Below, one piece after another: positions 1-17,873 of a stretch of 64,000 nucleotides of DNA; position 1 is the first letter of the stretch; each line of letters opens with the position of its first letter. This DNA is from Clostridia bacterium. Lineage in GTDB: Bacteria > Bacillota > Clostridia > Christensenellales > UBA1242. A program made the translations under genes and the position numbers. The DNA lies in NCBI GenBank assembly GCA_900753315.1, contig CAADYP010000015.1:8592-72591 (forward strand), in the 5' to 3' direction. The notes under the pieces were generated by a model that was not told the DNA's origin, ran no database searches, and was given only the letters and a program-made list of their open reading frames with translations.

Positions 1-71
1 GCACTGAGCCGCACTCGAAATGCGGTTGTCGAGAAATCGGCACGTGGGTTCAAATCCCACCGTCTCCGCCA
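1..71 (+). tRNA. tRNA-Ser(CGA), 3' portion (5' end lies outside the window)
   Basis: Anticodon stem ccgca/tgcgg (9-13/21-25) with loop CTCGAAA gives anticodon CGA. Long variable arm (26-43). T arm gtggg-ttcaaat-cccac (44-60). Acceptor 3' strand, G discriminator and encoded CCA end at 71. Confidence 0.85.
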
Positions 72-1681
72 CGGAAAGGCTGTTGGACAGAAATGTTCAT
101 TTCAGCCTTTTTTTCTTTGAAAATTTTGCTATTTTCATCAAAATGGGAGTCCGAGTTTTCGGCACTCCCATTTTTTGTGTTTCCACTATCAAAATTATTA
201 TCTCTTTTCTCAAATTTTTCTAAAATTCTTTTAGCGTAAAGTTCATCATTATTTATAGAAAGTTCATTGTCTGGGCCTTTGTTTCCGCACATTATCACAA
301 TAACTTTATCGTTGAATAAAATCACCTTTTTAATAAAGCGGTTGAAAAATTCATTGCGTTCAAACACATCATCATAATCCTTGCAGGCAAACAGTGATAT
401 AAAATTCTTCACATCTTCAAATTCAAGAGGCCTATCAATTTTTGTTTTTTCTTCAGCAATTTTAAGTTGAATGTCCGCCCTGTCGTTTTCAAGTTTGTAA
501 AGTTCTTCACGAATGGCAAGCGAAACTATGCCCTGTTCCATATTTTTAACAAGGCTGTTAATTTTGCTATTTATTTGTTTTAACTCTTTTTCAAGACATT
601 TCAGCACAATGTTGTTAGAAAGTTCTTCGTTAAACTTGTCCACAACCATGTGCGCAATTTCTTCAATTTTGGTTGGTGTTAAAATATACTGCTTGGTTTT
701 GTCAATAATTAGTTGTTCAAGTTCTTGCTTGCGATAATTTCTAAGTTCGCACGCCTTACCCTCAACCTTTTTAGTATGGCACTTGTAATATTTGTATCTC
801 GTTCCCATATGGCTAGAACCGGCTTCGGCAATAACACTTTTACCGCAGTAACCGCAGAAGATTTTGCCCGTTAAAAAGTATGGGTCGTATTTGTCTTTTT
901 TGTAGTTTCGGCGAAATTCCACCATCATGCCGTTCACAACTTTCCATAATTTTTCTTCAATTATCTGCGGAATAACATCGGTAAAAATTTCTCCACCAAA
1001 CTTTTCAATGCCCATATATCTTGGGTTGTGTAACATCTTGGCAATCATGTTGCCGTTCCACTTGTTGCCACTGTTAGACCTAGAGCCTTGTGCGTTTAAG
1101 TGGTCGGCAATCTCAGTTGCCTTTTCGCCTTTTGAATATTCGTCAAAGACCTGTCTAACAAACTTTGCGTGTTCTTCGTCAATCACCCATTTTCTACCTT
1201 CAATTTTGTAACCATAGGTAACTTGCCCGCCTGTGAAATTGCCTTTCATTAAACTTTCGCGAACGCCGCGCTTAACTTTTTGGCTAAGCTCGGCAGAATA
1301 ATATTCAGCCATACCTTCAAGCACGCTTTCCATCAAAATTCCACTTGCATCGTCTGAAATATTTTCTCTTGCCGACAGCACACGCACACCATTTTTCTTT
1401 AACTTCATTTTGTAGTTAGCACTGTCATATCTATTTCTTGCAAACCTGTCCAATTGATAAACTAGCACAAACTCAAACTCTTTTTTCTTGCTGTCCTCAA
1501 TCATTTTTAGGAACGCCGGTCGCCTGTCTGTTGTTCCCGAAAGTGCACGGTCAATATATTCGTGTACAACCACATAATCGTTTCGTTCGGCATACTCGTG
1601 GCAAACTCTAAGTTGCCCTTCAATTGATTGCTCTGTTTGCCTGTCGCTTGAATATCTAGCATAGATTACAATTTTTTTCAT
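50..1681 (-). CDS. Large serine recombinase (integrase)
   Basis: N-terminal resolvase catalytic motif IYARYSSDRQ and a central recombinase domain. Cys cluster CGYCG...YYKCH suggests a zinc ribbon, followed by a coiled-coil-like tail. AGGAG RBS lies upstream of the ATG at 1681. The last ~25 codons run through the tRNA terminator into the tRNA 3' end. Confidence 0.85.
   Translation of the reverse strand: MKKIVIYARYSSDRQTEQSIEGQLRVCHEYAERNDYVVVHEYIDRALSGTTDRRPAFLKMIEDSKKKEFEFVLVYQLDRFARNRYDSANYKMKLKKNGVRVLSARENISDDASGILMESVLEGMAEYYSAELSQKVKRGVRESLMKGNFTGGQVTYGYKIEGRKWVIDEEHAKFVRQVFDEYSKGEKATEIADHLNAQGSRSNSGNKWNGNMIAKMLHNPRYMGIEKFGGEIFTDVIPQIIEEKLWKVVNGMMVEFRRNYKKDKYDPYFLTGKIFCGYCGKSVIAEAGSSHMGTRYKYYKCHTKKVEGKACELRNYRKQELEQLIIDKTKQYILTPTKIEEIAHMVVDKFNEELSNNIVLKCLEKELKQINSKINSLVKNMEQGIVSLAIREELYKLENDRADIQLKIAEEKTKIDRPLEFEDVKNFISLFACKDYDDVFERNEFFNRFIKKVILFNDKVIVIMCGNKGPDNELSINNDELYAKRILEKFEKRDNNFDSGNTKNGSAENSDSHFDENSKIFKEKKAEMNISVQQPFRGGDGGI
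75..116 (+). terminator. Intrinsic terminator after tRNA-Ser
   Basis: Stem aaaggctg (75-82) pairs with cagccttt (103-110) and is followed by a T-run to 116. The loop is long (20 nt). Confidence 0.55.
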
Positions 1682-1780
1682 AATTACTCCTTAGGTTAAT
1701 TTTTCGCTCTTTCAAGTTTTTTTCAACACAAACACATACCACAAAAATTTTCACAAGTCCAGCACAAACTAGAAAGTTTT

Positions 1781-1999
1781 TCAAACTTTTTGTTGTCCAG
1801 TTTCTCGCCATGAAAACACGCTCCTTGGGGTTGCATTTTTGAAATCAACGCCTCGCTTTATGCTTAACAATAATTCTGCCACCAACTTGCTTACTGCTTC
1901 TTCATAAGTCTTTTCGTTTATCTCAATTTCAGGCTGGTTTACAATCTCTTTTGTAACTCTATCTATTATCAAAACATTCTTTAAATTTTCAATATTCAT
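1781..1999 (-). CDS. Small hypothetical protein upstream of the integrase (possible directionality factor; speculative)
   Basis: The track ORF starts at a GTG. An internal ATG at 1999 has a GAGGAGA RBS. No recognisable motif. Confidence 0.3.
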   Translation of the reverse strand: MNIENLKNVLIIDRVTKEIVNQPEIEINEKTYEEAVSKLVAELLLSIKRGVDFKNATPRSVFSWRETGQQKV

Positions 2000-2481
2000 A
2001 ATTATTCTCCTCACTGCATTTAGAGGGGCAATGAGTTAAATATTATCTCTTTCAAAAATTTAAATTTTCGCTTTCAAAAAACGATTTAAACTAAACTGGG
2101 TTTCCCAGTTGTTGCGAAAAGCGGAGAGATGCAAATTGAGTCAATGTGCTGGCACGCACAAAATGTGTGACGGCACTAAAAGTGTCCATATCTAGCGGGT
2201 TTTAGCCACATAAAAAACAATTTGCGTCACTCCTTTTCCTGCTTAAGAAAAATTAAGCATTATTTTTTTCTGATTTCATTCTTCTTACCCATAAACACCT
2301 CCTCTATATAAGGGGTTTTATAAGTCACTTTTTGCATTGAATTTCTTTACATAAAAAAGAAAACCTCTGATTTTATCAGAGATTTCGCCATATAAATTAT
2401 TTTTAAAAATTCAATTTTATTGTCATATTTTTCAGTCACTTTTTTCTTTTATCCCAAAAAGAGAGGCAATGAGTAGTTTTG

Positions 2482-2516
2482 AAAATAAAAAGATCAACTT
2501 CATTTTGAAGTTGACC
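2482..2516 (-). terminator. Intrinsic terminator of the methyltransferase-helicase operon
   Basis: Stem tcaacttc (2494-2501) pairs with gaagttga (2507-2514). An A-run on the + strand (2484-2491) becomes a T-run on the - strand. It lies 11 nt after the stop at 2527. Confidence 0.7.
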
Positions 2517-2526
2517 TTATTGTTAC

Positions 2527-5500
2527 TTATTCAAACACTTCATCAAGCTTTTGCTCTAGTGTTCCGTCTTGGGCGAATGGTAAAGAATCAAATTGTTTTA
2601 GATTGTGTTTATCTATTTTTATATCTTTGCTAAAACCTAATATGAATGATTTTGCGATTCTATAAATAATTTCTGTTGGTGCTAAGCCGTACACTTGTTT
2701 TGCAAAAATATGACTTAATCTGTCGGCATCATTTGGATAAAGTTTTTTCATATTTGAACTTCTATAAAGCTTTTTAACAATTTCTGCAATATAAAGTCCT
2801 GATTTCATATATAGATCTATAAAAGTATGATTTGGGTCATCATAGCAACCTGGATTTTCTTTTTCAAGATTATCTACCATTTCTTTTACTACTTTCTTTG
2901 GTGTAAATATTTGATTGGTCTTTTGAGGTGGAATATAGTCAAAAATATCTTCCTTTGAGTTGTCGTCAAAGTAATTTGCTAAATCTTGTTTTTTCTTCAA
3001 AAATTCTTTTATTGAATCATTGAAAACCACTGAATCAAAAAATCCATTATAATGTTTGCTTTCGCCATTTTCATCAACATAATCAAATCCATCTCTTAAC
3101 TTTCTAAAATCATCTAGTGAAATACTTGTAACTTCTTTAAACACTTTGTTAGGAATTATTTGGTCAAAATTTTCCAAGGTAGTATTTTCATCTCCATATG
3201 CCATCAAGAATGATGGGATAGTCCTCGAAAAACCTCTTAAATGGTCACGAACATTATCCATTAAAGAATCTTTTTGTTTTTCTTTTTTATCCGTTTCAAC
3301 GACATCAACAATAGTTCTTCCTGCATTATCAATAACATTTTTAACTTCGGATTGAATAGAACTCATAAAGTTATGCTCAATTTCTTTTTTCTTTTCATCA
3401 AATTTTGTGTTAATTTCTGCAATCTTATGAACATTTCCAGTTTGTTTTGCATTTTCAAGTTCTTTTGATCGCTCATTTTCAAGTTTGTTTTTACTTATTT
3501 GATAATTGCCGTATTGTTTTTTAACAAAAGTATCTGCCGTTGTGTTTATCTTTCTAACAAGTGCTTGTTGAGTAGATTTAGATAAATCACTGCCATAATT
3601 TTCTTTCGCAGTTTTAACTAGTGTATCTGTAATATTTGTGTGAAATGCATCTAAAAGTGCATTAAGTTTTTCATCTTTTTTATGTGCGATTTCATTTTCT
3701 TTTTGAATTGTTGTAACAGTGTCGATTAAACTTTGTTCAATATCTCCATAAATCTTTTCTCCAAAAACATCATTTGCAGTTCCAATAACTTGTTCTTCTG
3801 GAATTACAACATTTCCTTCATCATCTAAATTAAGTTTTTCTTTTGTATCTTCTTTTATTCCAACAGGCTCTTTAATTGGTTCAAATTTTTGAAGAATATC
3901 CAAAACTTCCTTTGGAGCATTAAATATATTGCCCACATTTTGGAATAAGAAATTACTCATAAATCCGCGACGAACAACTTCTTTTGCATGAATTGATCTT
4001 GGTATTGATAAGACTTTTTCAGCATCAAGTTCAATCATTTCGCCATTTGGATCTTCGCCATATACAGGGAAGAAGTTAAGAAGTTCTCTTACATGTTGTT
4101 TTCTAGTATCAGAGTCGCCACGACCGTTTGCTGTGTCAGCCATAAGGTCATTTGCAAATTCTTCAACAATAGTAAGCGTTCTTGCAGGGTCAAAGTCAAA
4201 TACATAAGAATTTTGTTTTCTGTAACTTTCGCTACCATTTTTGAATAAACATGGGTTTTGTGCTCTAAAAGCCGATTGCATATACAATGCCGGACTCTTT
4301 ACATTTGAAAGCATCATAACGGCAGTCCACTCTGGAATAGTAATGCCAGTTGTAAGTTGTCCTACGGAAATAGTAATTGTTTTATCGTTGTTTTTTATTG
4401 CATCAACAACTTTATCATAAGAGTTTTTGATATTCTTATCAAAACTTATTTCATCACAATAATTTCCTTCATTGTCTATTTTACCATCGCCAGCCGCAAG
4501 AACAATTTTGTAATCTTTGAAGACTTCATGATTTTGCAATTTTTTAGCGAGAGCCTTTGCACTGCTAACATATTTAAGTAGCCACAATGTGTGCTTTAAT
4601 TCTTTTCGTAATTCTTCTGTTGAAAATGGGAATTTTTCTTGTTTTGTTAAAGCATCAAGAAACTTATCAACTGCATCATTATGTATAAATTCACCACTTG
4701 CATTTGTATCAAAAAAGTCGTTTAAGTCCCAGCAAAATGCTTCATTTTGTCCATCATTGTCAAAGTCGGCTCCTTGTTCCACTTTATCATGAACAATGTC
4801 AGACATTTTATAAGTAAACAAATTAAGTTGTGGCAAGTTAGCATAAGGATTTTCTTCTTCGCTTGATTCATTCCATTCATGCTTTGCTTTTTGCTCATCA
4901 GCATAAGTCCAGTTATAAATTGCTTTTGGTGGAAATTTATCATTTGCAAGTGCTTTGAAAGGTGTTCCAGACAAATGCAATGTGCATCTTCTTTTTATTT
5001 GGTCAAATACCACATCAGTTTTGTAAGTATCAACTCCTTCATGTACTTCATCAATAACCAAAACATCCCATTCAAGGTCAGCAACTTCTCTAAGTTTATC
5101 AAACATACCACCAAAGTATATTGATCCTTTAAGGTCTTGAAGGGATACAAATTCTATGCAACCTTTGTGATTTGGTTCAGATATTAAATCAAGATATTTT
5201 TCTCTTGATAAAACATACTTTTTGTCTTTAAGTCCATCAACATTACTTACAAAATAATATCCCGATTCTGTTCCCATAAACTTAACATAATCATCATACC
5301 ATGAGTTTGCAATAGCAGGTCGGTTGGTTACAATAAGTATTTTGTTAATGTTAGGGAGTGCCTTACATAAATCATAAGTTGATAATGTTTTGCCAAACCT
5401 TGGCTTTGCATTCCACAAACATTCCGCTTTGTGAGAATTATCCAAAAAGTAATCTCTTGTTTGTTTAACTGCATCTTTTTGTTCTTTTCTAAGTACATAG

Positions 5501-5889
5501 GGGATAACACCTAAAGTTTGCAAAACACCCTTATCTCTTTTAAACTTGCCAAACAAAACATATGATTCATCACCAGAAATATAAAACCATTCTGGGCAAC
5601 CTTCGTTATCTGGTTTGGGGTCTTTTCTTTTAATATCGTTTTTTGCCAAATATGAATGGAACTCTTTGTCTGTAAATCTTGTCTTTCCATCAGAAAAAAT
5701 TGCGAGATCTTGCCATTCTTTTTTTGCCACAACATCTACTGTTTGTGTTTGCTCTTTTATTCTTGCATCAACATCTCTTTCTGTGTATCCTATCTTTGTC
5801 CAACCATCGTGATATACAACCCCTGGAGTGGTGTATGCATAAATCATAGGAGCAACTTTTGCAGAGGTTTGAATTTTAATTTTTGCCAT
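2527..5889 (-). CDS. T5orf172 (GIY-YIG superfamily) + SF2/SNF2-type helicase, with a C-terminal degenerate half of a gamma-class methyltransferase fold
   Basis: N-terminus MIYAY...WTKIGYT...RIKEQ...FHSYL...PEWFY matches the T5orf172 pattern. Helicase motifs: PRFGKT (I), VIDEVHEG (II), LSGTP (III), QLTTGITIPEW (V), QSAFRAQNP (VI). The last ~127 aa carry an FTPKKVVKEMV motif-X-like element and IDLYMKSGLYI in place of DPACGSGxF. The protein ends before any NPPY. RBS AGGAG. Confidence 0.75.
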   Translation of the reverse strand: MAKIKIQTSAKVAPMIYAYTTPGVVYHDGWTKIGYTERDVDARIKEQTQTVDVVAKKEWQDLAIFSDGKTRFTDKEFHSYLAKNDIKRKDPKPDNEGCPEWFYISGDESYVLFGKFKRDKGVLQTLGVIPYVLRKEQKDAVKQTRDYFLDNSHKAECLWNAKPRFGKTLSTYDLCKALPNINKILIVTNRPAIANSWYDDYVKFMGTESGYYFVSNVDGLKDKKYVLSREKYLDLISEPNHKGCIEFVSLQDLKGSIYFGGMFDKLREVADLEWDVLVIDEVHEGVDTYKTDVVFDQIKRRCTLHLSGTPFKALANDKFPPKAIYNWTYADEQKAKHEWNESSEEENPYANLPQLNLFTYKMSDIVHDKVEQGADFDNDGQNEAFCWDLNDFFDTNASGEFIHNDAVDKFLDALTKQEKFPFSTEELRKELKHTLWLLKYVSSAKALAKKLQNHEVFKDYKIVLAAGDGKIDNEGNYCDEISFDKNIKNSYDKVVDAIKNNDKTITISVGQLTTGITIPEWTAVMMLSNVKSPALYMQSAFRAQNPCLFKNGSESYRKQNSYVFDFDPARTLTIVEEFANDLMADTANGRGDSDTRKQHVRELLNFFPVYGEDPNGEMIELDAEKVLSIPRSIHAKEVVRRGFMSNFLFQNVGNIFNAPKEVLDILQKFEPIKEPVGIKEDTKEKLNLDDEGNVVIPEEQVIGTANDVFGEKIYGDIEQSLIDTVTTIQKENEIAHKKDEKLNALLDAFHTNITDTLVKTAKENYGSDLSKSTQQALVRKINTTADTFVKKQYGNYQISKNKLENERSKELENAKQTGNVHKIAEINTKFDEKKKEIEHNFMSSIQSEVKNVIDNAGRTIVDVVETDKKEKQKDSLMDNVRDHLRGFSRTIPSFLMAYGDENTTLENFDQIIPNKVFKEVTSISLDDFRKLRDGFDYVDENGESKHYNGFFDSVVFNDSIKEFLKKKQDLANYFDDNSKEDIFDYIPPQKTNQIFTPKKVVKEMVDNLEKENPGCYDDPNHTFIDLYMKSGLYIAEIVKKLYRSSNMKKLYPNDADRLSHIFAKQVYGLAPTEIIYRIAKSFILGFSKDIKIDKHNLKQFDSLPFAQDGTLEQKLDEVFE

Positions 5890-5890
5890 A

Positions 5891-7897
5891 TTATTTCATC
5901 TCCTTTACATGAGATTCAATAAAGTTAATTTCGTTTTGGTCTAGTCCATACTTTTTATATAACTGTAAATCAATTTCGTGTATGGATTTTGACCAATCTA
6001 TATCAGATTTATCTGTAAAATCTTGAAGGGGGATAAGAATAAAGGACTCTTTAGATATATTTAATGAATGTCTATTATAAAATAACAATGCTCTAAAATA
6101 TTTTGATTTAATATACTTTAAACAATTCTGTGCATCCATAAGCATATCAAATGGTCCTATTTCCAAAAATGTCTCTGTACATAAACTATCCGGTATTCCA
6201 ACAATAATTTCTGGAGGGACTGTTGAAGTTGTCATATATGCTTTTGAGAAATATAATTTATATTTGTTGATATTGCCACTATTCTTAGTAATTTTGTCTT
6301 TATCTATAAACCCAACAACTCTTTTGGCACCACCTTTTTTACCAGCTACGCCATAGATTTTTACGCAATTTGCTTTTTCACTAAAACTAATGTCCAAATC
6401 TTTATATTTTTCATGATCGTTAAACAAATCAGCAGAGAGTCCATAAGGATTTCTATATGAAACTATTTCACTAAATTGCTTTTTGCCCGAAGATTTTTTT
6501 ATAATTGATGATTGTCGATAATCCCTTATAATAGTATTTGAATATTCTGTTTTAAGATATCTTTTTGAATATATCGCTTCTTCGTCTTTTGGTTTGTATC
6601 TAAAAGTAACCAAGCCATTATAATCTTTTTTCCATACTAAATAACATACGCCACCATCAATATGAACTCCTGGAAAACATTCTGAAGCATCTTCATAATC
6701 AGCAATACTTTTTATATGTGTATCAATCATCATTTCTTGACGAAAACTTTCTAAACCTTTTCCACCTTTCATCCATCTGCTAGGAACAATTAAGGAAAAA
6801 CTATTATTAGTTATTTTTTTTGCTTCATTTATAAAAAATTGATAAATAGGTTTAGCGCTGTCCCCAGTACCACCACCATCACTTTCTTGATAAGGTGGAT
6901 TTCCTATAACAAAATCAAAGTTCATATGCTTTTCTCCTTTGAAAAATTTAATTGATCTTTTGGTCTTCCAGTTCATTATTCGCGAGTAGATTCCAGTATG
7001 CTTGCTGTTATCATTTTTTGAACAACCTAAACAAAGGGCTGTCTCTTCATCTTCAAATAATGACATTTGTCTTTTTTGTATTGGTTTGCAACTGTTTGGA
7101 ATAACATCTTTTAGTCCGTCCATTTGCCATATATTCCAAGAAAGTATTTTTGCAACTTCTATCAAATACTCTTTAATAGGGAACAGTTTAAATTTTGCAA
7201 CATAATAATCTATAAATGTGAATAGCAAATTTTCTCTTGCAATAAGCAAACTATCACCTTGCCACTCATAACCGAAAGTTGATTTGAATGCAACAAGTGT
7301 CCAGAGATACCAATCTTGCTCAGAATTGCAATTTTCATTTATTACTCTTAACTTTCTATCTAAAGCACCGATTCTGCTGTTTACATCTATCCATTGGCCA
7401 GTGCTTGTATCATAACGGCTGGCGAGAAAGGGAGCCTCCCCACATGAAATTTCCAGCACTTTTAGTTTTACAAAATCTTGCCAAGTTTTATCTTTTTCAT
7501 TTGTAAAAAATATTTTGTTATTGTTCACTATCCATGTTTTATCTTTTGCAGTGTTAAACACGTCTTTTTTCTCAAACCACTCATCACAAAGATAATTGTT
7601 CATTTCATTGCATATCCACGAGGGTGTAAAGACTTCAGCTTTGTCTTTGATTCTTATCTTCTGTTCTTTTTGAGATTTATCTATTCGCGGTCTTATTATT
7701 TTCCCGAACCTGCCAGTAATTAGTTTTACTGTTATTGGCTCTGGGGAGTCATAAGACGCACCTTTACTTGCATAAATGTCAGTCGCCCAAATTATGTTTT
7801 TGCCAGAACTTCTATCTTTAAGCAAAATACTTAAAAGTTCAGTATCCAAGCACTTAATATAATTTTCTCGTATATCAATATCTGGTTGTTCTGACAT
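5891..7897 (-). CDS. N6-adenine DNA methyltransferase (Eco57I-like, gamma class) with a C-terminal target-recognition region
   Basis: Motif X EVFTPSWICNEM, motif I VLEISCGEAPFL, motif IV FVIGNPPYQ. About 340 aa follow NPPY. Likely start is the ATG at 7897 (AAGAGGAGA RBS), not the GTG at 7915. The stop is 1 nt from the helicase ATG. Confidence 0.8.
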   Translation of the reverse strand: MSEQPDIDIRENYIKCLDTELLSILLKDRSSGKNIIWATDIYASKGASYDSPEPITVKLITGRFGKIIRPRIDKSQKEQKIRIKDKAEVFTPSWICNEMNNYLCDEWFEKKDVFNTAKDKTWIVNNNKIFFTNEKDKTWQDFVKLKVLEISCGEAPFLASRYDTSTGQWIDVNSRIGALDRKLRVINENCNSEQDWYLWTLVAFKSTFGYEWQGDSLLIARENLLFTFIDYYVAKFKLFPIKEYLIEVAKILSWNIWQMDGLKDVIPNSCKPIQKRQMSLFEDEETALCLGCSKNDNSKHTGIYSRIMNWKTKRSIKFFKGEKHMNFDFVIGNPPYQESDGGGTGDSAKPIYQFFINEAKKITNNSFSLIVPSRWMKGGKGLESFRQEMMIDTHIKSIADYEDASECFPGVHIDGGVCYLVWKKDYNGLVTFRYKPKDEEAIYSKRYLKTEYSNTIIRDYRQSSIIKKSSGKKQFSEIVSYRNPYGLSADLFNDHEKYKDLDISFSEKANCVKIYGVAGKKGGAKRVVGFIDKDKITKNSGNINKYKLYFSKAYMTTSTVPPEIIVGIPDSLCTETFLEIGPFDMLMDAQNCLKYIKSKYFRALLFYNRHSLNISKESFILIPLQDFTDKSDIDWSKSIHEIDLQLYKKYGLDQNEINFIESHVKEMK

Positions 7898-8142: not shown

Positions 8143-8144
8143 AA

Positions 8145-11342: not shown

Positions 11343-11757
11343 AATTAGTCACCTCCGATAAAAATGATTTAAGTCCCAAACTCTTAATTTCATCAATAAA
11401 AATTTTTATTGAATTTTTCTCTAGTCGCTGATCTTTTACAAATATTACACTTTTATCTATTAATTCAATATCCTGGCCTTTAATTTTTACGATATTATTC
11501 TCCAACAAAATATTCATACTCTCTATGGCTTCTAGTAATTTTTCATAAGAAAATGCATTCCCCTTATTTAGTTCACTAAAATAGAAACTTATTACATCAT
11601 TTCTCTTAGTAGTAGAGCAATCAATATCTCTACAATAAATTAAACATATTGTACTGTAAATTATTTTACTCAACGATTTCAATTCAAAATTCTTTAATAA
11701 ATATAAATAAATGTTTATATAATTTGCGTAAGTTAACGACTTGCTAATTTTTATCAT
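11335..11757 (-). CDS. lmuC: LmuC-like small middle component
   Basis: 140-aa ORF sandwiched between lmuA and lmuB and overlapping both (14 nt and 8 nt). The call rests on position and size, not on motifs. Confidence 0.5.
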   Translation of the reverse strand: MIKISKSLTYANYINIYLYLLKNFELKSLSKIIYSTICLIYCRDIDCSTTKRNDVISFYFSELNKGNAFSYEKLLEAIESMNILLENNIVKIKGQDIELIDKSVIFVKDQRLEKNSIKIFIDEIKSLGLKSFLSEVTNCV

Positions 11758-12895
11758 CTATATCACCCCACTTAATTCTTGTATTATCATCAACCTCCTG
11801 GCTCGTCATATAAATATAACAACCTTTTTGTAAAAAAACACTTTCTCCCGCCTGTGAAATTATTTTGCTCTTAATGGGTGTTTGCGTGGTTGTGAAATAA
11901 ATATTCTTTGGGCTTTTTTCTTTACCGTAAAAATCCAATTTGTCTAAAGCATCTCGATAATTATTTTTAGCTTCCTCATGAGTAGACAACACTTTATTTA
12001 TATCTTTTTCTTTATAAAAATCTATTAATCTTCTATAAAACAACTCTCTCAACACATCTTCATATATTTGTTCATCTGATCTCTCCGCCAATCTTAATTG
12101 CTTGACTTCTAATTTATCTTCACTTAAAATTGATTCTATTTGTCTTTCTACCTTATTTTTATTTCTAAACTCAATAAAATCAGGGTCAAAGATTTCATTA
12201 CCATATTTCTGACATGCTAAGATCAAATATTTTGTAAAATCAACGTTTGAAATACTGTATCCCCATCTAGATTCTATGCTTGCAACCATTTCATTCGTTA
12301 TTTTTTGTTTGACAAAATCAAACCTTTCTTTCCTTGGAACAATTAAATCTTTATTAATATCTACGCAAAATCTACTATCAAAAATCTCATATTGTTCTCT
12401 TTTAATAGTTTCGATTGAATAATTATCAATTACATCATAATTATCTATTATATGATTAAGAATGTTATCTACGAAAGATGAATCTAAATCTTTTATTTTA
12501 TTATATGCCTTACGCTTAATTGTCCTTATATCCGCATCTTTAGCCTCTCCGATATGTTTTTTGAGTGCAGTAAAAAAGTTGGAATCAACATCAAAAGAAA
12601 CTTCTTTCTCCGAAATTAATTGATATCTATATTCTTTGTAAGAATCAAATGCAGTTTCTATTAACCAATTGTCAAAGATTTTATAAAAATCATCATCATC
12701 CAAATCCCCAGTTTTAACTTGAATAAGTATCTTTTTGTATGAGATAGACGCTAATTTATATTCAATATTTACATCATCAGATACTTCAAATCCTATATTA
12801 AAATCGCCGTTATTTATATTTTTTAGTAAGAATTTATAAAAAAACTCTTGTTGATATAGAAAACCTCTATAACTCGTAACTCCTGCTCCTGGCAT
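11744..12895 (-). CDS. lmuA: LmuA-like effector with an N-terminal Cap4/DUF4297-type nuclease domain
   Basis: N-terminus GAGVTSYRGFLYQQEFFYKFLL...FEVSDDVNIEY...IQVKTG fits the DUF4297 pattern (G-F-x-YQ, E-x-D, Q-x-K). GAGGTG RBS. Confidence 0.65.
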   Translation of the reverse strand: MPGAGVTSYRGFLYQQEFFYKFLLKNINNGDFNIGFEVSDDVNIEYKLASISYKKILIQVKTGDLDDDDFYKIFDNWLIETAFDSYKEYRYQLISEKEVSFDVDSNFFTALKKHIGEAKDADIRTIKRKAYNKIKDLDSSFVDNILNHIIDNYDVIDNYSIETIKREQYEIFDSRFCVDINKDLIVPRKERFDFVKQKITNEMVASIESRWGYSISNVDFTKYLILACQKYGNEIFDPDFIEFRNKNKVERQIESILSEDKLEVKQLRLAERSDEQIYEDVLRELFYRRLIDFYKEKDINKVLSTHEEAKNNYRDALDKLDFYGKEKSPKNIYFTTTQTPIKSKIISQAGESVFLQKGCYIYMTSQEVDDNTRIKWGDIDDKN

Positions 12896-12977: not shown

Positions 12978-15737
12978 TTAATGAATAATATTACTCGTAT
13001 AAAATTTTAATCCAAATTTGTTGGCCAACAATTGTGCATCTCTAATATTAAAATTCGACTTAAACCTTGAGATTGTTGTTTTTTCAGTTTCCGGAGTCCA
13101 ATATATTTTCAACAGTCTTTTTGTTCTTGTTATTGCAGTATAGAATACACTATGTGATATTTTCTCTTCAACATCGTGTGTAATTACAATTTTAACAGAA
13201 TCATATTCTAAACCTTGAGATTTGTGAATTGATGTAGCATAGGCCACTTGGAAAGGTATAATATTATCAGCATCTTCATCATCATAATCTGTAGTTTTTA
13301 CTTTTGTTATTCTAAACTTGATAATAGATTTCCCATCTATTACACTTACAATTTCAAAATTTGCATGACGATATTCCATTTTTTCAGTTAAGTCCACATT
13401 TATTTCAATTTGAAAATCTATCCAAAGATCATCTTTTTCTATCTTTACAATTTTTCCCTTCATATTGTTATAAACCAATCCATCAAACCGTTCAGTTTTA
13501 TTAAATAACACGGGATCATCAACCTTAAAAGTCCAAACATCCCAATAAATTGGTTTATTTACGTTGTTTGCTTGTAAAAATCTATTAATATTATTTATTC
13601 CATATAATCCATCATAATTCAAACACAAAATTATTTCATCAGTCGAATATGGAGTAAAAATCGAGTCATTCAAATCACTTGAGAATCCGTTTCTATCTAT
13701 TGCCTCTTGAATATCACACTGCAGAGTCCTAACATTTGACCATAATCTTAATAATTCTTCATCATTAGTTCTATGTATATCGGATAAATCTGTAATACAA
13801 TAATTAGGGACAAAATATCTAGCTAAGTTAAACCAATTACCAAATGAAATTGCTTCAATTTGATAAACATCACCAACAACAATTATTTGTTCACATTGTA
13901 TTTTTTCTAAAATCTTTCTCATGTCTTCATTACTTACAATGCTACATTCGTCTATAACCAATATATCATAATTAACCGAAAGGTCATTATTTATAAACTG
14001 ATAAATAGTTTCAAATTTAAAATTTTCGTTTTTATCAATTCTACCACTTAAATTATTTACAGCAGTATTTGTTTGGGATAGAAACAACATTGATTTATTA
14101 CTATAGAAGTCTGCAATATGATTAACAAGATAAGTTTTTCCTGTACCCGCAGGGCCGTAAATTAATGCAATTTTTGTTCTTTCAAATAGTGTCTTTAATT
14201 TAATCAACTTTTCTTCACTATCTATTTTTGTTTTTCCAATTTCATTATACCATTGATTAAAATCTTTACAATAATTATTTACTCCACCAGAAGACAATTC
14301 CTTAAACTTATTAATAATTGTTATTATGTCATCTTCATATTTCTGTATAAACAAATTATTATGTAGTTTATATATTTTTCTTCCTGGATGGCCATTGTAA
14401 ACAGTGTTATTATATTTCTCGATTAAACTATCTATTTCTTCAAAATTTTCTAAACTATCAATAGGAGTATATAAAGTCGATTCTCTTTCAACATTGTTGA
14501 CCAGTCTCCTTGCAAGCAATTCATGCTCATGGCCATCAATATCTATGCATTGCAATAAGTCAACAATCCTCATTCTATGTCCTAATAAAGATGTATTATA
14601 AGGCATTTCGTCAAAAGATATCGATCCATACTGTATGTACAAGTTTGACAACTTCCTATTTGGCCTAGTATCATATTGATCCTTTATTACATTATTGTTT
14701 AATCTTAGTAACAAACAGCATATAATATTTGATCCTGGCAATTTATTAAAAAATAGTTCTCTGCATTTATCCAAGCACTCAAAAATTTTTATTTTTTTAA
14801 CATCTGCCAAAATATCTCTCTTATTTATGTCATAAATATCTTTTTCAAGTTTTATTAATTCAACCAAACTGATTTTGTTTTCCGTCATAAATTCCATTAA
14901 ATTTGAATATTCTTTTCCATCTGTCCTTATTTCTTCATGAATTCCAAAAAGTTTCATAAAATTTTGAAATTCACACGGTCTTACAGAAACCATCCAACTA
15001 GTTAAAACATTAATAGGCATAGTCTTTCCAAAAATATAAACCGTTCTTCTTACATATTTAATATTTACAGCATAATTCTCAAAAACCTTTATCCTTGAAT
15101 AAACTATCATTCTATCATACTTAGTAGCATAATCATTTGCTGCGGATAAAGTAATTTCATAATATATGTCATTTTTAATTAAAATCTGATTAACTTTTTG
15201 CACATAATATCTATTACCATAAAATAAAGAACCCTTTTCTAGTGGCGTATTGTCAATAACACTTGTAATAGTTTCATAATAGTCTAAAAATTTAGGGTCT
15301 TGATATACTTGAAATTTGTATATGCTTCTTAATATATTTATGTTGTGATAATTTTTAAAATATTTTTTTAATTCTATAAGATACTCATAATACTTTAACA
15401 TAAGACGTTCAGAGATATCTTCATCTTCATAATAATGAGAAATGGAACCTTGCAACATATAATGAAATTTATGAATAAAATAAGTTTCTGGTTTACTTTT
15501 TATAAATCGTAATGACTCTTGAATTCTGTCATAATTATAATTAAGAGGCTCTCCTCTGTCTTTCATAAGAAGATATAATGATAAAGCTTCTACAAAATGT
15601 CTTAACGGCTCCAAAATATTTTTAGATACTTCAGCTCTGTTTTCTCTTGTAAACATGTCAAGTTCATCATTTATTTCCTTATTCATCTTATTTAGAACAT
15701 CACTTAAATTTCTCATATGTATGTACCTCGTAATCAT
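12978..15737 (-). CDS. RecD/TraA-like SF1 helicase with a ~520-aa unassigned N-terminal region
   Basis: C-terminal half has GPAGTGKT (I), LSQTNTAVNNL (Ia), LVIDECSIV (II), VVGDVYQIEAI (III), SIHKSQGLEYDSV (V) and YTAITRTKRLL (VI). I recognise no motif in the N-terminal half. The start may be the ATG at 15716, because a TGtTATAAT box overlaps the ATG at 15737. Confidence 0.75.
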   Translation of the reverse strand: MITRYIHMRNLSDVLNKMNKEINDELDMFTRENRAEVSKNILEPLRHFVEALSLYLLMKDRGEPLNYNYDRIQESLRFIKSKPETYFIHKFHYMLQGSISHYYEDEDISERLMLKYYEYLIELKKYFKNYHNINILRSIYKFQVYQDPKFLDYYETITSVIDNTPLEKGSLFYGNRYYVQKVNQILIKNDIYYEITLSAANDYATKYDRMIVYSRIKVFENYAVNIKYVRRTVYIFGKTMPINVLTSWMVSVRPCEFQNFMKLFGIHEEIRTDGKEYSNLMEFMTENKISLVELIKLEKDIYDINKRDILADVKKIKIFECLDKCRELFFNKLPGSNIICCLLLRLNNNVIKDQYDTRPNRKLSNLYIQYGSISFDEMPYNTSLLGHRMRIVDLLQCIDIDGHEHELLARRLVNNVERESTLYTPIDSLENFEEIDSLIEKYNNTVYNGHPGRKIYKLHNNLFIQKYEDDIITIINKFKELSSGGVNNYCKDFNQWYNEIGKTKIDSEEKLIKLKTLFERTKIALIYGPAGTGKTYLVNHIADFYSNKSMLFLSQTNTAVNNLSGRIDKNENFKFETIYQFINNDLSVNYDILVIDECSIVSNEDMRKILEKIQCEQIIVVGDVYQIEAISFGNWFNLARYFVPNYCITDLSDIHRTNDEELLRLWSNVRTLQCDIQEAIDRNGFSSDLNDSIFTPYSTDEIILCLNYDGLYGINNINRFLQANNVNKPIYWDVWTFKVDDPVLFNKTERFDGLVYNNMKGKIVKIEKDDLWIDFQIEINVDLTEKMEYRHANFEIVSVIDGKSIIKFRITKVKTTDYDDEDADNIIPFQVAYATSIHKSQGLEYDSVKIVITHDVEEKISHSVFYTAITRTKRLLKIYWTPETEKTTISRFKSNFNIRDAQLLANKFGLKFYTSNIIH

Positions 15738-16570: not shown

Positions 16571-16626
16571 GTTTAATTTACATTACTTATTTATATGTAG
16601 ATTAGCTGATTTTATTATCATAATTT

Positions 16627-16750
16627 ATCTATAATGCAATAAAAATATGCCATTTTGGCATATTTGTTTTAAAATTATTACGCCATTTTGACATGTCGGC
16701 AATTAAGTTAACTAATACACAAAATAAAAATTGCCGTTACCGGCAAATTC
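16627..16750. repeat. Direct repeat copy B (~125 bp), ending in a hairpin terminator
   Basis: Partner of 9389-9512. Contains the dyad atatgcc-atttt-ggcatat (16645-16663), attacgccattttgacatgtcgg and the hairpin ttgccgttaccggcaa. On the - strand this acts as the terminator of the nucleotidyltransferase gene. Confidence 0.7.
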
Positions 16751-16793
16751 TTATCTTGCTAAATTATCTTAAATTATATAAAAAGAGAGGTAT

Positions 16794-17447
16794 TTACCTC
16801 TCCTTTTGTTGGAAGTTCCTTTTAAAAATTGTGTCTAAAGTTTGATAATAAACTATTCTGGATTTCTTGTCAGGTTCTTTATTTTTGTTTTCAAGATATA
16901 ATTTCTTTACATTCTGCCACAATCCATTATCTTTAATTAAGTTTTCAACATATCTATGATCGGTTGCAACTTTTCTTAAAGCCCAAGAATATGTGTTTGT
17001 GTTTTTATCAAACCTAACATACTCTTGCCTCTCTTTACCATCATCATCTTCATAATAACTAACAATTGCAAAATCAACACTGCATATTATTTTATTTCTA
17101 TTAGCATTTAATTTTTTAATTGTAATTACAGAAGTTGAATCTTCAGAATAGTCATAACTATCATCAAAATATCTATTAAATAATTTAACAAATATTTCTT
17201 TCAATAGTTTAGGATCTTCATATTTTTCATTCAATATTTTTTGAATTACAATATTGTAGTCCAAATCAAATCCTTTATTACCATTTTTAACTCTGGTTAT
17301 TAATTTTCTTCCGGCACTTCCAATTAAGTTGAATTGAAAAGTTAAAATTTTGTTTTTTCGCAAATATTTTTGAACTTCTCTTAATATTCCATCAACCTCC
17401 AACTTAAAAGGTTGATACTCGCCCTTCGGTACATATTCAAACGACAT
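16794..17447 (-). CDS. Small pol-beta-fold nucleotidyltransferase (SMODS/CD-NTase-like core)
   Basis: LIGSAGRKLITRVKNGNKGFDLDYNIV carries G-S followed by D-x-D. A third acidic residue lies in CSVDFAIV. 217 aa. Perfect AAGGAGG RBS. Confidence 0.6.
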   Translation of the reverse strand: MSFEYVPKGEYQPFKLEVDGILREVQKYLRKNKILTFQFNLIGSAGRKLITRVKNGNKGFDLDYNIVIQKILNEKYEDPKLLKEIFVKLFNRYFDDSYDYSEDSTSVITIKKLNANRNKIICSVDFAIVSYYEDDDGKERQEYVRFDKNTNTYSWALRKVATDHRYVENLIKDNGLWQNVKKLYLENKNKEPDKKSRIVYYQTLDTIFKRNFQQKER

Positions 17448-17873
17448 ATTTTACCTCCTTACTGTTTGAATTGGAGGGGGATTGAAATTTATACTATTTC
17501 AATCAGGGAGTAAACAAGTTTCATAGCCAACCTATTTACTATTTCAGTATAGCACACATTGATTAAAAAGTGTATACTTTTACAAAAAATCATTTTTACA
17601 CTATATAAAACCCATATGCAAACAGGTGTCTATAAGTAACCACCTCATGCGTTGGAATATAGTCCATAAACTCAATGTGGGTGCTAAACTTCTGGGTTGG
17701 GTCGACTTGACCAACTCTCTTTGCCTTGCCCTTACTCTTACCTACTTTTTCACTGCCTTGCCCTTTTCTATCGTTTTTACCATATGACTTTCCTTTCTCC
17801 CCGCAAGGTTCGAATACACATTCCCTTGGCCCGCCAACATTTTAGATGCAAATTTTTAAATAAAGGAGTTTAT

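What the first reader, a model, noticed from the sequence alone, without database searches (positions are those of the whole stretch)
1..17873. About 17.5-kb AT-rich island of stacked defence modules next to tRNA-Ser, mobilised by a large serine recombinase
An intact tRNA-Ser(CGA) 3' end and its terminator are followed immediately by a large serine recombinase. After that come only recombinases and defence-type genes: an R-M-like pair, Lamassu, two helicase-type genes' worth of unassigned sequence and an orphan nucleotidyltransferase. Housekeeping genes resume near 17.9 kb. Large serine recombinases leave no long direct repeats, which fits the fact that I find no tRNA-derived repeat at the far end. 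Several modules here are not explained by named systems, so this is the most likely place in the window for an undescribed system.
Basis: partly seen in the sequence, partly recalled or inferred. Interest (0 to 1): 0.7.

Follow-up and report, generated by a model that had tools for sequence, protein, structure and literature searches.

The report
Serine-recombinase defence island at tRNA-Ser
This is a real, recently mobile 17.8-kb cassette of anti-phage genes inserted at the end of a serine tRNA gene, and inserting it cuts the integrase's own gene in two, so free and integrated copies encode different forms of the enzyme.

Summary
Window 72-17836 is a discrete 17.77-kb insertion at the last bases (CCGCCA) of tRNA-Ser(CGA). 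Contigs 99.2-99.7% identical in the flank carry the empty site. The same island (99.9% identical) ends at the same base in at least three other contexts. The same recombinase body is joined to at least six different antisense-tRNA ends.

The cargo is all defence-type:
- an Eco57I-type methylase plus a T5orf172-helicase (R-M pair), behind a 162-bp invertible promoter seen in both orientations;
- a divergent Lamassu that PADLOC misses;
- the PADLOC candidate PDC-S53 helicase;
- a DUF5677 protein;
- a 217-aa orphan with a CD-NTase-like fold.

Relatives of the large serine recombinase (LSR; 77-94% identical, 25 species-representative genomes) share only a 2-kb mobility module. Their cargo is different, again defence-type. 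Most sit at tRNA-Ser genes or at tRNA-like pseudo-sites in tandem arrays.

The unexpected part is that attP lies inside the LSR reading frame. Integration leaves a 543-aa enzyme ending inside the tRNA and moves the last 79 codons to the far end. Rejoining gives 616 aa. A contiguous 646-aa relative confirms this.

Verdict: new variant of a known kind. No excised circle of this island was found.

The parts
1..71 (+). 3' 71 nt of tRNA-Ser(CGA), the attB-left half. The gene stays intact after insertion.
   Evidence: 100% match to the full 91-nt tRNA-Ser(cga) of the empty-site contigs L002-L004, L006 and L009.
66..71 (.). attL common core CCGCCA. It is TGGCGG on the LSR strand and is translated as part of R-G-G.
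   Evidence: Comparison of attB, attL and attR. TGGCGG is retained at the junction of 21 of the 22 related loci compared; L016 has only TG.
73..180 (+). Two tandem intrinsic terminators on the tRNA-sense strand (hairpins 73-112 and 140-174, each followed by a T run). They are encoded antisense within the 3' part of the LSR reading frame.
   Evidence: Sequence. Both hairpins are conserved in 11 elements, and 3 pairs show compensatory changes.
50..1681 (-). Large serine recombinase, integrated (truncated) form of 543 aa. The last 6 codons and the stop lie inside the tRNA.
   Evidence: Pfam Resolvase 4.8e-30, Recombinase 5.2e-18, Zn_ribbon_recom 3.4e-11. PHROG 95 integrase 1.5e-114. C-termini of relatives.
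1781..1999 (-). 72-aa protein conserved next to the LSR in relatives. Candidate directionality factor or regulator (inferred).
   Evidence: 43-63% identity to the ORFs at the same position in L016-L018. No domain hit.
2527..5889 (-). 1120-aa T5orf172 (GIY-YIG-type) plus SF2 helicase (ResIII) protein, the restriction/translocase subunit of the R-M-like pair.
   Evidence: Pfam ResIII 4.4e-12 and T5orf172 8.2e-4. PADLOC REase_MTase_IIG 1.3e-16. Homologues on plasmids, either split or fused to the methylase.
5891..7897 (-). 668-aa Eco57I-type N6-adenine methyltransferase with target-recognition part. The ORF extends to a GTG at 7915.
   Evidence: Pfam Eco57I 2.6e-24. PADLOC MTase_II 4.8e-118 and 1.4e-56.
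7931..8142 (.). Invertible promoter switch. 25-bp inverted repeats (7931-7955 and 8118-8142) flank 162 bp that carry an extended -10 promoter (TG 8046-8047, TATAAT 8049-8054 on the + strand). In the window it points away from the R-M operon.
   Evidence: Inverted repeat I6. Sequence. The segment is inverted in L010, which is otherwise 99.9% identical. The IR core occurs only at these two places in 64 kb.
8351..8929 (+). 192-aa small serine recombinase, the probable invertase of the adjacent switch.
   Evidence: Pfam Resolvase 1.1e-27. PHROG DNA invertase 1.2e-49. NCBIfam Mpi-type invertase 2e-14, below cut-off.
9624..11342 (-). Divergent LmuB (SMC-like ABC ATPase) of a Lamassu system.
   Evidence: No direct PADLOC or Pfam hit. 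The family has only 148 representatives. 66 of 75 members hit PADLOC LmuB. The family profile hits PDB DUF3732 proteins 9ny5 and 9hqu at 2e-16.
11335..11757 (-). 140-aa middle gene in the LmuC position.
   Evidence: Overlapping-gene operon order A-C-B. The order is conserved in the 65%-identical locus L024. No domain hit.
11744..12895 (-). LmuA-type effector with an N-terminal Cap4-type nuclease domain.
   Evidence: Pfam Cap4_nuclease 27.1 bits against a cut-off of 26.2.
12978..15737 (-). PDC-S53, a single-gene PADLOC defence candidate: a ~500-aa N-terminal region without a domain match plus a RecD-like SF1B helicase.
   Evidence: PADLOC PDLC05035 1108 bits over the full length. AAA_30 and UvrD_C_2. 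Stands alone as plasmid cargo.
15806..16570 (+). DUF5677 protein (called as 238 aa from 15854).
   Evidence: Pfam DUF5677 3.1e-8. A preprint found the domain enriched next to serine recombinases; a DUF5677 ORF was among nine it tested, but DUF5677 is not among the five domain types it lists as protective.
16794..17447 (-). 217-aa orphan nucleotidyltransferase with a CD-NTase-like fold.
   Evidence: Invariant GS, DxD and D residues. AF2 pLDDT 93.4. All top Foldseek PDB hits are CD-NTases or cGAS. No Pfam or PADLOC hit. No conserved partner gene.
17596..17836 (-). Detached 3' end of the LSR gene: 79 codons plus stop, with no start codon, in frame with the core. Ends in the conserved tail ...IEFMDYIPTHEVVTYRHLFAYGFYIV.
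   Evidence: Translation and attP reconstruction give 616 aa. The same tail is contiguous in the 646-aa P0019 on L061. 16 synonymous against 8 nonsynonymous codon changes.
17797..17836 (+). attR: the attP-left arm, a T-arm-like mimic GGTTCGAAT followed by 15 bp and then the core CCGCCA (17831-17836).
   Evidence: The island ends at this base in L019-L023, with different flanks beyond it.
9388..9514 (+). Copy 1 of a ~125-bp direct repeat (76% identical; copy 2 at 16626-16754). The pair brackets Lamassu, PDC-S53 and DUF5677. Meaning unknown.

Best explanation
Window 72-17836 is an integrative defence cassette with no transfer machinery of its own. It was inserted by its own large serine recombinase (LSR) into the last bases (CCGCCA) of tRNA-Ser(CGA).

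Shown:
- The insertion is precise, and empty sites exist.
- The same element sits at several tRNA-Ser genes.
- The tRNA stays intact and receives two terminators from the element.
- Related LSRs share only a 2-kb module (LSR plus a ~70-aa gene). They carry other defence cargo, at tRNA-Ser genes or in tandem arrays.
- attP lies inside the LSR reading frame. Integration leaves a 543-aa LSR whose last codons are antisense tRNA. It detaches 79 codons, which end in a conserved 32-aa tail, to the attR end.
- The R-M operon sits behind a 162-bp invertible promoter seen in both orientations.

Inferred:
- The zinc-ribbon domain reads the T-loop motif ATTYGAACC. The motif lies 10 bp from the core in attB and 15 bp from it in attP.
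- The full-length (616-aa) and truncated enzymes differ in activity or stability, so the element senses whether it is free or integrated.
- The ~70-aa protein is the directionality factor.
- The small serine recombinase flips the promoter.
- Spread between cells relies on helper elements, transduction or transformation.
For: Insertion and empty sites.

Same right end in other flanks at 99.9% identity.

One LSR body with at least six different post-core ends, including antisense tRNA-Ser(TGA) and tRNA-Ser(GCT).

Relatives: 25 loci from species-representative genomes, of which 10 of 22 scanned have a tRNA-Ser (GCT, TGA or GGA) overlapping the LSR end. Six others show TGGCGG followed by tRNA-like remnants or another element's end.

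Cargo of relatives: GmrSD/SspE, type I R-M, DndB, BrxL, Z1/AIPR/DUF4420, AlwI.

Split gene:
- The frame is continuous across the reconstructed attP.
- P0019/L061 is a contiguous 646-aa LSR with hairpin, TGGCGG, 15 nt and ATTCGAACC inside the ORF.
- Its 92%- and 91%-identical siblings P0023 and P0025 diverge immediately after the core-encoded GG (FGG / SGG) into antisense tRNA.
- The tail shows 16 synonymous against 8 nonsynonymous codon changes.

The 5-bp attP/attB offset appears in the two lineages examined and matches the published model.

Terminators are conserved with compensatory changes.

Inverton.

Module identities.
Against: - No excised circle or attP junction of this island was found: 0 hits in JGI metagenome contigs and in IMG/VR, and the 616-aa sequence is absent from the protein collection.
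- L061 may be a free relative or a fragment of a plasmid or phage. It was not shown to be circular.
- The crossover dinucleotide inside CCGCCA is not resolved.
- No convincing motif was found in the right half-sites.
- AF2 gives the region after residue ~470 of the full-length relative, including the tail, pLDDT of about 30. The tail's structure and role are unknown.
- No defence function was tested.
- The species identity of the other insertion contexts is unknown.
Confidence: 0.85

Rival explanations
1. The region is a fixed, vertically inherited variable hotspot next to a tRNA. Defence genes accumulated there by homologous exchange, and the LSR is a bystander or decayed gene.
For: No circular form was found. 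All exact copies of the 543-aa form of this LSR lie at the same site with the same cargo.
Against: The ends are precise to the base, with only a 6-bp core. The same island has the same end in other flanks. The same LSR body is joined to at least six different tRNA ends. The LSR frame is intact and conserved across 25 species.
Confidence: 0.03
2. The island is a degraded prophage, a phage satellite or an integrative conjugative or mobilisable element, and the defence genes are accessory cargo.
For: LSRs are typical phage integrases (PHROG 95). One relative lies next to an LSR prophage (L017). L061 has cI/Cro-like HTH genes beside its LSR.
Against: No capsid, terminase, tail, replication, relaxase or type IV secretion gene lies in 72-17836. 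The relaxase-model hits of the 919-aa protein cover only its helicase part and fall far below cut-off. Cargo in 15 related loci is again defence-type.
Confidence: 0.07
3. The open frame at attR (17596-17836) is not a functional part of the LSR. The LSR simply tolerates any C-terminus, and the 'tail' is conserved for DNA-level reasons, such as the att arm or the promoter of the next gene.
For: The 543-aa form retains the whole canonical fold: the body of the relative is confidently modelled up to about residue 470. The tail model has very low confidence. The att arm overlaps the first ~15 codons.
Against: Tail codons differ mostly at synonymous positions between lineages only 53% identical overall (16 synonymous, 8 nonsynonymous, 8 identical). 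The frame stays open across a divergent K/G-rich linker in three lineages. The conserved tail lies 140-240 bp from the core, beyond any LSR att site of 40-50 bp.
Confidence: 0.2
4. The island is two formerly separate tandem elements that fused after loss of the inner LSR. Part A is LSR, R-M and invertase (about 72-9045). Part B is Lamassu, PDC-S53, DUF5677 and the NTase (about 9046-17836). This adds to the main explanation and does not replace it.
For: GC steps from 32.6% to 27.0%. A degenerate arm-like sequence ending in CCCGCCA lies at 9010-9045 inside a 694-bp non-coding gap. Tandem arrays are common among relatives. The tail plus NTase module recurs at 91% identity in a different island type.
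Against: The resemblance of the 9010-9045 arm is weak, and CCGCCA occurs 19 times in the window. No contig was found with part A or part B alone at a tRNA.
Confidence: 0.35

Closest known systems
Staphylococcal cassette chromosome elements (SCCmec and other SCC; CcrAB/CcrC large serine recombinases)
   Same: A cassette with no transfer machinery of its own, moved by an LSR into the 3' end of one conserved host gene. Cargo is variable and tandem or composite arrays form. CcrB is the best NCBIfam match of the LSR.
   Different: The score is far below the Ccr cut-off (137 against 900 bits). The target is tRNA-Ser and not rlmH. There is one recombinase and not a pair. The cargo is anti-phage defence. 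attP lies inside the recombinase gene. The statements about SCC biology rest on my own knowledge.
Phage serine integrases of the A118/LI type and the Rutherford-Van Duyne att-site model (PMC3783163)
   Same: Same domain set. Short common core. A 9-bp outer motif lies 5 bp further from the centre in attP than in attB.
   Different: The target is a tRNA 3' end, which in mycobacteriophages is reported only for tyrosine integrases. The motif mimics the tRNA T-loop. No phage genes are present. The integrase frame runs through attP.
attP inside a gene of the element: integration-dependent immunity of mycobacteriophages (PMC9262239). From my own knowledge also Mx8 intP/intX and SSV1-type archaeal integrases.
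   Same: Integration at a tRNA 3' end removes the C-terminus of an element-encoded protein, so free and integrated states make different products.
   Different: Those systems use tyrosine integrases. In the mycobacteriophages the split gene is the repressor. Here a serine integrase splits its own gene, and the consequence is untested.
Lamassu / DdmABC (LmuA-Cap4 nuclease, LmuC, LmuB SMC-like ATPase)
   Same: Three overlapping genes in the order A-C-B. The effector has a Cap4-type nuclease domain. The ATPase family is tied to LmuB by HMM and PDB profile matches.
   Different: A small divergent clade (148 representatives among 1.84 billion). The window's three proteins hit no PADLOC model.
Invertible promoters (invertons) and phase-variable R-M systems; small serine recombinases as markers of defence genes (Andersen et al. 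2025 preprint, PMC12632615)
   Same: A Hin/Mpi-like invertase lies beside short inverted repeats that enclose a promoter next to a defence operon. The preprint proposes inversion as one reason for the association.
   Different: Here both orientations are seen in natural assemblies for an Eco57I-type methylase/helicase operon. Effects on expression and methylation are not measured.
CBASS cyclic-oligonucleotide synthases (CD-NTases: CdnB, CdnE, DncV)
   Same: The best structural matches of the 217-aa protein. The catalytic GS, DxD and D residues are conserved.
   Different: About 100 residues shorter. No SMODS or PADLOC Cdn match. No effector or other conserved neighbour.

Membership tests
Large serine recombinase (serine integrase) | N-terminal resolvase catalytic domain plus recombinase domain plus zinc-ribbon domain with a coiled-coil insert | tested here: met
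   Pfam Resolvase, Recombinase and Zn_ribbon_recom all above cut-off. Long helices follow the zinc ribbon in the AF2 model of the relative P0019.
Large serine recombinase (serine integrase) | attL and attR share only a short core with attB, with no long direct repeat | tested here: met
   The 6-bp CCGCCA is the only identity between the two junctions.
Large serine recombinase (serine integrase) | Outer (ZD) motif about 5 bp further from the centre in attP than in attB, on both half-sites | tested here: inconclusive
   Left half: ATTYGAACC lies 10 nt from the core in attB and 15 nt from it in attP, in two lineages. Right half: no convincing motif was found.
Large serine recombinase (serine integrase) | Catalyses attP x attB recombination; excision needs a directionality factor | not testable with these tools
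   A conserved ~70-aa neighbour is a candidate only.
SCC elements (Ccr recombinases) | Recombinase scores as CcrA, CcrB or CcrC; insertion in rlmH (orfX) | tested here: not met
   CcrB 137 bits against a cut-off of 900. The target is tRNA-Ser.
Lamassu | LmuB: SMC-like ABC ATPase with a DUF3732-type C-terminus | tested here: met
   Met indirectly. 66 of 75 family members hit PADLOC LmuB models. The family profile hits PDB DUF3732 chains at 2e-16.
Lamassu | LmuA effector gene adjacent, in one operon | tested here: met
   Cap4_nuclease 27.1 bits against a cut-off of 26.2. The genes overlap.
Lamassu | Detection by current defence-finder models (PADLOC v2) | tested here: not met
   No hit for any of the three proteins, even at E <= 10.
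Lamassu | LmuC accessory protein | tested here: inconclusive
   A 140-aa gene sits in the right position, and this is conserved in L024. It has no sequence match.
Type IIG / Type ISP-like R-M | Gamma-class N6-adenine methylase with target-recognition part | tested here: met
   Eco57I 2.6e-24. PADLOC MTase_II 4.8e-118 and 1.4e-56.
Type IIG / Type ISP-like R-M | Nuclease, helicase and methylase in one polypeptide | tested here: not met
   Split into 1120 aa and 668 aa here. Fused in plasmid pRS5 (1417 aa) and split in Treponema.
Type IIG / Type ISP-like R-M | Nuclease domain | tested here: inconclusive
   T5orf172 20.3 bits against a cut-off of 20.
Invertible promoter (inverton) | Inverted repeats around a short segment, both orientations observed, invertase nearby | tested here: met
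   25-bp IRs. The segment is inverted in L010 while the flanks stay colinear. The invertase is 209 bp away.
Invertible promoter (inverton) | The segment carries the promoter of the regulated operon | tested here: inconclusive
   Only a consensus match (TGaTATAAT at 8046-8054). No transcript data.
CBASS | CD-NTase recognised by the family models | tested here: not met
   No Pfam SMODS or PADLOC Cdn hit. Only fold similarity: Foldseek E about 5e-6, TM 0.4-0.6.
CBASS | Adjacent effector (Cap) gene | tested here: not met
   The neighbours differ in every context examined.
PDC-S53 (PADLOC candidate) | Full-length match to the model | tested here: met
   1108 bits, residues 8-910 against model positions 1-896 of 900.
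PDC-S53 (PADLOC candidate) | Demonstrated anti-phage activity | not testable with these tools
   No paper in the library mentions it.

The most novel reading that the evidence does not exclude
A widespread clade of tRNA-Ser-targeting large serine recombinases in gut Clostridia carries attP inside its own reading frame. Integration swaps a conserved C-terminal tail for a few antisense-tRNA codons, and excision restores it. If the tail controls activity, directionality or turnover, this is a self-contained switch that tells the element whether it is free or integrated. I know of no such switch described for serine integrases. The same clade would be a dedicated vehicle that shuffles defence cassettes among species, and it includes Lamassu variants and a minimal CD-NTase-like enzyme that current finders miss.
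Probability: 0.45. Interest if true: 0.8.

Novelty: new variant of a known kind. Interest (0 to 1): 0.62.

Why it matters
- Gut Clostridia and Christensenellales are poorly covered by defence-system surveys. This LSR clade marks defence cassettes there and gives exact element boundaries. It can serve as bait for new systems, as small serine recombinases were recently used.
- An LSR that reads the universally conserved T-arm and CCA end of tRNA-Ser and tolerates several isoacceptors is a natural example of a broad but precise landing site. That may interest genome engineers.
- The split integrase gene offers a simple, testable route to directionality or stability control in serine integrases, whose regulation is otherwise ascribed to separate directionality factors.
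- The promoter switch gives sequence-level support to the idea that small serine recombinases next to defence genes act as phase-variation invertases.

Tried and rejected
- Exact searches for the predicted attP junction and for the attP-left arm in JGI metagenome contigs and IMG/VR found nothing.
- Exact look-up of two reconstructed 616-aa LSR sequences found nothing.
- Direct PADLOC, Pfam, NCBIfam, PHROG and PDB-sequence searches with the three Lamassu-like proteins, the 217-aa protein and the 72-aa protein gave no usable hit. The identities of the LmuB-like ATPase and the 217-aa protein came only from a family profile and from a structure model.
- AF2 of the full-length relative gave no confident model of the linker or tail.
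- I looked for the T-loop-like motif in the right half-sites of attP and attB. Three alternative flanks have a similar word at the same distance, but they are terminators downstream of homologous tRNAs, so I do not count this as evidence.
- I first read the 125-bp repeat as inverted, because of locus orientation in BLAST. It is direct. I found no variant lacking the bracketed segment.
- I considered the small serine recombinase as a second mobility enzyme. I rejected this in favour of an invertase role because its only nearby sites are the 25-bp inverted repeats, and the inversion is observed.
- I considered DUF5677 plus the NTase as a toxin-antitoxin-like pair. This is not supported: the genes converge with terminators between them, and NTase relatives lack a DUF5677 neighbour.
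- The 72-aa protein shows no similarity to the HTH protein beside the L061 LSR.

Full report
**What is in the sequence**

Window 1-71 is the 3' part of a tRNA-Ser(CGA) gene cut by the window edge. ARAGORN does not call it in the window. It does call a 91-nt tRNA-Ser(cga) in related contigs whose last 71 nt match window 1-71 exactly.

Eleven genes follow:
- A 543-aa large serine recombinase (LSR) at 50-1681, minus strand.
- A 72-aa ORF at 1781-1999.
- An 1120-aa T5orf172 + ResIII helicase at 2527-5889.
- An Eco57I-type methylase at 5891-7897.
- A 192-aa small serine recombinase at 8351-8929, plus strand.
- Three overlapping genes of 383, 140 and 572 aa at 12895-9624.
- A 912-919-aa helicase at 12978-15737.
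- A DUF5677 protein at 15806-16570, plus strand.
- A 217-aa protein at 16794-17447.

Ordinary chromosomal genes follow from 17874: a weak HIT/CwfJ-type match, an SLT transglycosylase and a cysteine desulfurase. In the related contigs these are followed by sigA, dnaG and groES/groEL.

**It is an insertion with exact ends**

The flanking SLT protein occurs in nine distinct contexts. In eight of them the tRNA-Ser gene is joined directly to the sequence that starts at window 17831, at 99.2-99.7% identity. One context, with four similar ones not shown, carries the island.

The three sites compare as follows:
- attB: ...CCCACCGTCTCCGCCA|ACATTTTAG
- attL: ...GTCTCCGCCA|CGGAAAGGCTG
- attR: ...CCCTTGGCCCGCCA|ACATTTTAG

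The element is therefore 72-17836 (17,765 bp), with only CCGCCA shared. The tRNA is unchanged. In the empty site the next gene starts 37 nt after the CCA, with no terminator between.

**It has moved recently and repeatedly**

Five further contigs carry the island at 99.9% identity, covering from window 7770 onward in the longest. All end at base 17836/17837, followed by three other flanks. The flanks begin ATAGTGAATAATACG, ATCAATAGTCG (beside Z1/DUF4420 defence genes) and GTAGTGAACTG.

The 90%-identity protein cluster of the LSR holds the same body followed, after the residues R-G-G, by at least six different ends. Several are recognisably antisense tRNA-Ser(TGA) or tRNA-Ser(GCT). These include DGGI*, RIGIRTPVSSH, ELGIRTPGGC, EDGIRTHAPCYRPNPLAGGP..., ELGIRTPGCFHINGFQDRR... 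and ERGI*.

**It belongs to a clade of defence carriers**

A scan of one genome per species found 25 loci encoding LSRs 77-94% identical to this one. They come from Christensenellales and other uncultured Clostridia.

In 10 of the 22 loci scanned, a tRNA-Ser gene (GCT, TGA or GGA) overlaps the end of the LSR match. Six others show TGGCGG followed by tRNA-like fragments or another element's end, sometimes with a tRNA-Ser further on. This indicates tandem arrays. L016, a further locus fetched separately, has a non-tRNA flank.

DNA similarity to the window stops at about position 2119, so it covers only the LSR, the ~70-aa gene and its upstream region.

The cargo is different in each relative and again defence-type:
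- DpnII and other R-M systems
- Z1/DUF4420/AIPR/Dcm
- GmrSD/SspE
- type I R-M
- DndB
- BrxL
- AlwI

Cargo genes run in the same direction as the LSR.

**Site recognition**

On the LSR strand, the tRNA T-loop word ATTTGAACC lies 10 nt from TGGCGG in attB. In the element's own arm, ATTCGAACC lies 15 nt from it. A second lineage (L061 and its integrated siblings) shows the same 10 nt against 15 nt.

This is the 5-bp outward shift of the zinc-ribbon-domain motif in attP predicted by the structural model of serine integrases (PMC3783163). I found no matching motif on the right half-sites, and I cannot place the crossover dinucleotide within the core.

**The integrase gene is split by integration**

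The LSR frame runs through attL and stops six codons later inside the tRNA. All relatives likewise read through ...PRGG into whatever lies beyond, giving ORFs of 540-626 aa.

At the other end of the island an open frame with no start codon runs on the same strand from the core at 17836 to a stop at 17596. It is in the same phase relative to TGGCGG. Joining the ends as in an excised circle gives a 616-aa LSR ending ...QKFSTHIEFMDYIPTHEVVTYRHLFAYGFYIV.

Independent evidence comes from P0019, an LSR 53% identical to this one:
- It is a single 646-aa ORF on a 6-kb contig (L061) and ends ...QKFSNHIKFIDYISTHEIITYRHLFAYGFYVE.
- Inside the ORF it contains a hairpin, TGGCGG, 15 nt and ATTCGAACC, which is an intact attP.
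- Its 92%- and 91%-identical siblings P0023 (567 aa, 244 member sequences) and P0025 (554 aa) diverge from it immediately after the core-encoded GG (FGG / SGG) into antisense tRNA-Ser(TGA).

Between the window and L061, the 32 tail codons show 8 identical, 16 synonymous and 8 nonsynonymous positions. That indicates selection on the protein.

More distant LSRs (about 50% identical) also end in antisense-tRNA peptides such as GGGRGIRTP..., so the arrangement is family-wide.

The stretch of the LSR frame just before the core encodes, on the opposite strand, two intrinsic terminators for the tRNA. They are conserved in 11 elements, with some compensatory changes.

AF2 models the body of P0019 confidently up to about residue 470. 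It models the extension, including the tail, at pLDDT of about 30. What the tail does is therefore open.

The nearest precedents have attP inside a gene of the element. One is integration-dependent immunity in mycobacteriophages (PMC9262239). From my own knowledge, Mx8 intP/intX and SSV1-type integrases are others. All of these use tyrosine integrases. My literature searches found no serine-integrase case, which does not prove there is none.

**The cargo modules**

*R-M pair.* The methylase matches PADLOC MTase_II models strongly. The helicase protein matches part of a fused type IIG model. Homologues on lactic-acid-bacterial, Bifidobacterium and Treponema plasmids are either split or fused.

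*Promoter switch.* 25-bp inverted repeats (7931-7955 and 8118-8142) enclose 162 bp with an extended -10 promoter that faces the terminator at 8139-8175. The switch lies between the operon start (7897) and the small serine recombinase.
- In L010, from NCBI assembly GCA_964310015.1, the flanks are colinear at 99.9% but this segment is inverted. The outer mismatches stay in place, as expected for site-specific inversion.
- The window thus holds the orientation that points away from the R-M operon.
- In the L010 copy the methylase also has a 1-nt deletion in an A8 run. This may be an assembly error.

*Lamassu.* The effector passes the Pfam Cap4_nuclease cut-off narrowly. The 572-aa protein has no direct hit. 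An exhaustive profile search found a family of only 148 representatives. Of 75 full-length members, 66 match PADLOC LmuB models. The family profile matches PDB DUF3732 chains at 2e-16. A 65%-identical triplet sits beside tyrosine integrases elsewhere.

*PDC-S53.* The helicase matches this PADLOC candidate over its full length. Homologues stand alone on plasmids. In one plasmid, a homologue flanked by the same backbone genes (rep/DUF536 upstream, YafQ/Phd toxin-antitoxin and integrase downstream) takes the place held in pRS5 by a hypothetical gene plus the fused R-M enzyme.

*DUF5677.* A recent preprint found this domain enriched next to serine recombinases. A DUF5677 ORF was among the nine it tested, but DUF5677 is not among the five domain types it lists as protective.

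*217-aa protein.* It has invariant GS, DxD and D residues. The AF2 model is confident (pLDDT 93.4). All top PDB matches are CD-NTases or cGAS. It lacks family-model hits and any conserved neighbour.

**Composition and make-up**

GC is 29.6% for the island, 32.6% for 72-8350, 27.0% for 8351-17836 and 32.7% for the rest of the window. Several observations suggest that two tandem elements fused, but this is not established:
- the GC step at about 8.4-9 kb;
- a weak arm-like sequence ending in CCCGCCA at 9010-9045;
- the frequency of tandem arrays among relatives;
- reuse of the tail plus NTase module in another island type next to tRNA-Arg.

**What was not found**

I found no excised circle of this island. 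The island has no phage, replication or conjugation genes. No function was tested.

**Verdict**

The island is a new member of an undescribed but recognisable kind of element, an LSR-borne defence cassette. It has one unusual feature, the integrase gene split at attP, which deserves experimental follow-up.

Noticed in passing
window 7931-8142 (IRs 7931-7955 and 8118-8142); L010 3540-3752: A 162-bp promoter-bearing segment between 25-bp inverted repeats lies between the R-M operon and the small serine recombinase. It is inverted in one otherwise 99.9%-identical assembly. The R-M system is probably phase-variable, and the window holds the orientation facing away from it.
   Followed up: yes
window about 6815-6825 (A8 run in the methylase gene); L010 about 4862: The assembly with the inverted ('ON') promoter has a 1-nt deletion in an A8 homopolymer, which splits the methylase into 384 and 293 aa. 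This could be a real slippage-type inactivation or an assembly error.
   Followed up: partly
window 9388-9514 and 16626-16754: A ~125-bp direct repeat, 76% identical. Each copy lies between a convergent gene pair and contains the hairpin TTGCCGnTAnCGGCAA plus two conserved blocks. The pair brackets Lamassu, PDC-S53 and DUF5677 and occurs nowhere else in the window or the fetched loci. Unexplained.
   Followed up: partly
window 8930-9623, especially 9010-9075: A 694-bp non-coding gap holds a GC-richer stretch ...GACGCAAGTGTTGGCGTTAGTCCCGCCA TTAGGGAGTAATCCGAAC.... It loosely resembles the attR arm and lies at the GC step between the two halves of the island. It may be a fossil junction of two fused tandem elements.
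   Followed up: partly
window 2023-2036 and 2459-2475: The motif GAGRGGCAATGAG occurs twice in the non-coding stretch between the 72-aa gene and the end of the helicase gene. A 38-bp stretch around the second copy is 95% identical in L018, whose cargo is otherwise unrelated.
   Followed up: no
window 17837-17873 and 17580-17608: In the empty site the flank gene starts 37 nt after the tRNA CCA with no terminator, so it is probably co-transcribed with the tRNA. The insertion separates them by 17.8 kb. A promoter-like site facing outward (TTTACA, 17 nt, TATATA) lies near the island end.
   Followed up: no
L056-L060 about 9620-10755 (91% identical to window 17834-16693): The LSR tail fragment plus the 217-aa NTase gene recur as a unit 66 nt downstream of tRNA-Arg(ACG), next to smpB, followed by an AAA ATPase and an S8 peptidase. 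The junction there reads GCGGAGCGTGCC and not TGGCGGGCC. The end module is shared with another island type.
   Followed up: partly
L029, L031, L034, L035, L040, L046, L047 (just after the LSR end): Related LSRs are followed by TGGCGG plus tRNA-like remnants or another element's end, sometimes with a tRNA-Ser 0.3-8 kb further on. This indicates tandem arrays. In L044 the flank is the 3' end of another tRNA in the opposite orientation.
   Followed up: partly
L052 (pRS5) 2188-7364 and L062 (CP137848) 2710-7320: Two small lactobacillales plasmids share the backbone genes rep/DUF536 upstream and YafQ/Phd toxin-antitoxin plus integrase downstream. Between these, one carries a hypothetical gene plus the fused form of this island's R-M enzyme. 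The other carries a PDC-S53 homologue plus an ATP-binding protein. The two are interchangeable cargo.
   Followed up: no
window 1-71: Rfam reports this stretch as a 5'-truncated tmRNA (E 4.8e-5, below the gathering score). The anticodon arm, long variable arm and ARAGORN on the full gene show that it is tRNA-Ser(CGA).
   Followed up: yes
window 29525-29598, 59992-60068 and about 60000-63000: Two more tRNA genes, Gly(CCC) and Ile(GAT). GC and AT skew change sign from about 60 kb. Neither was examined.
   Followed up: no
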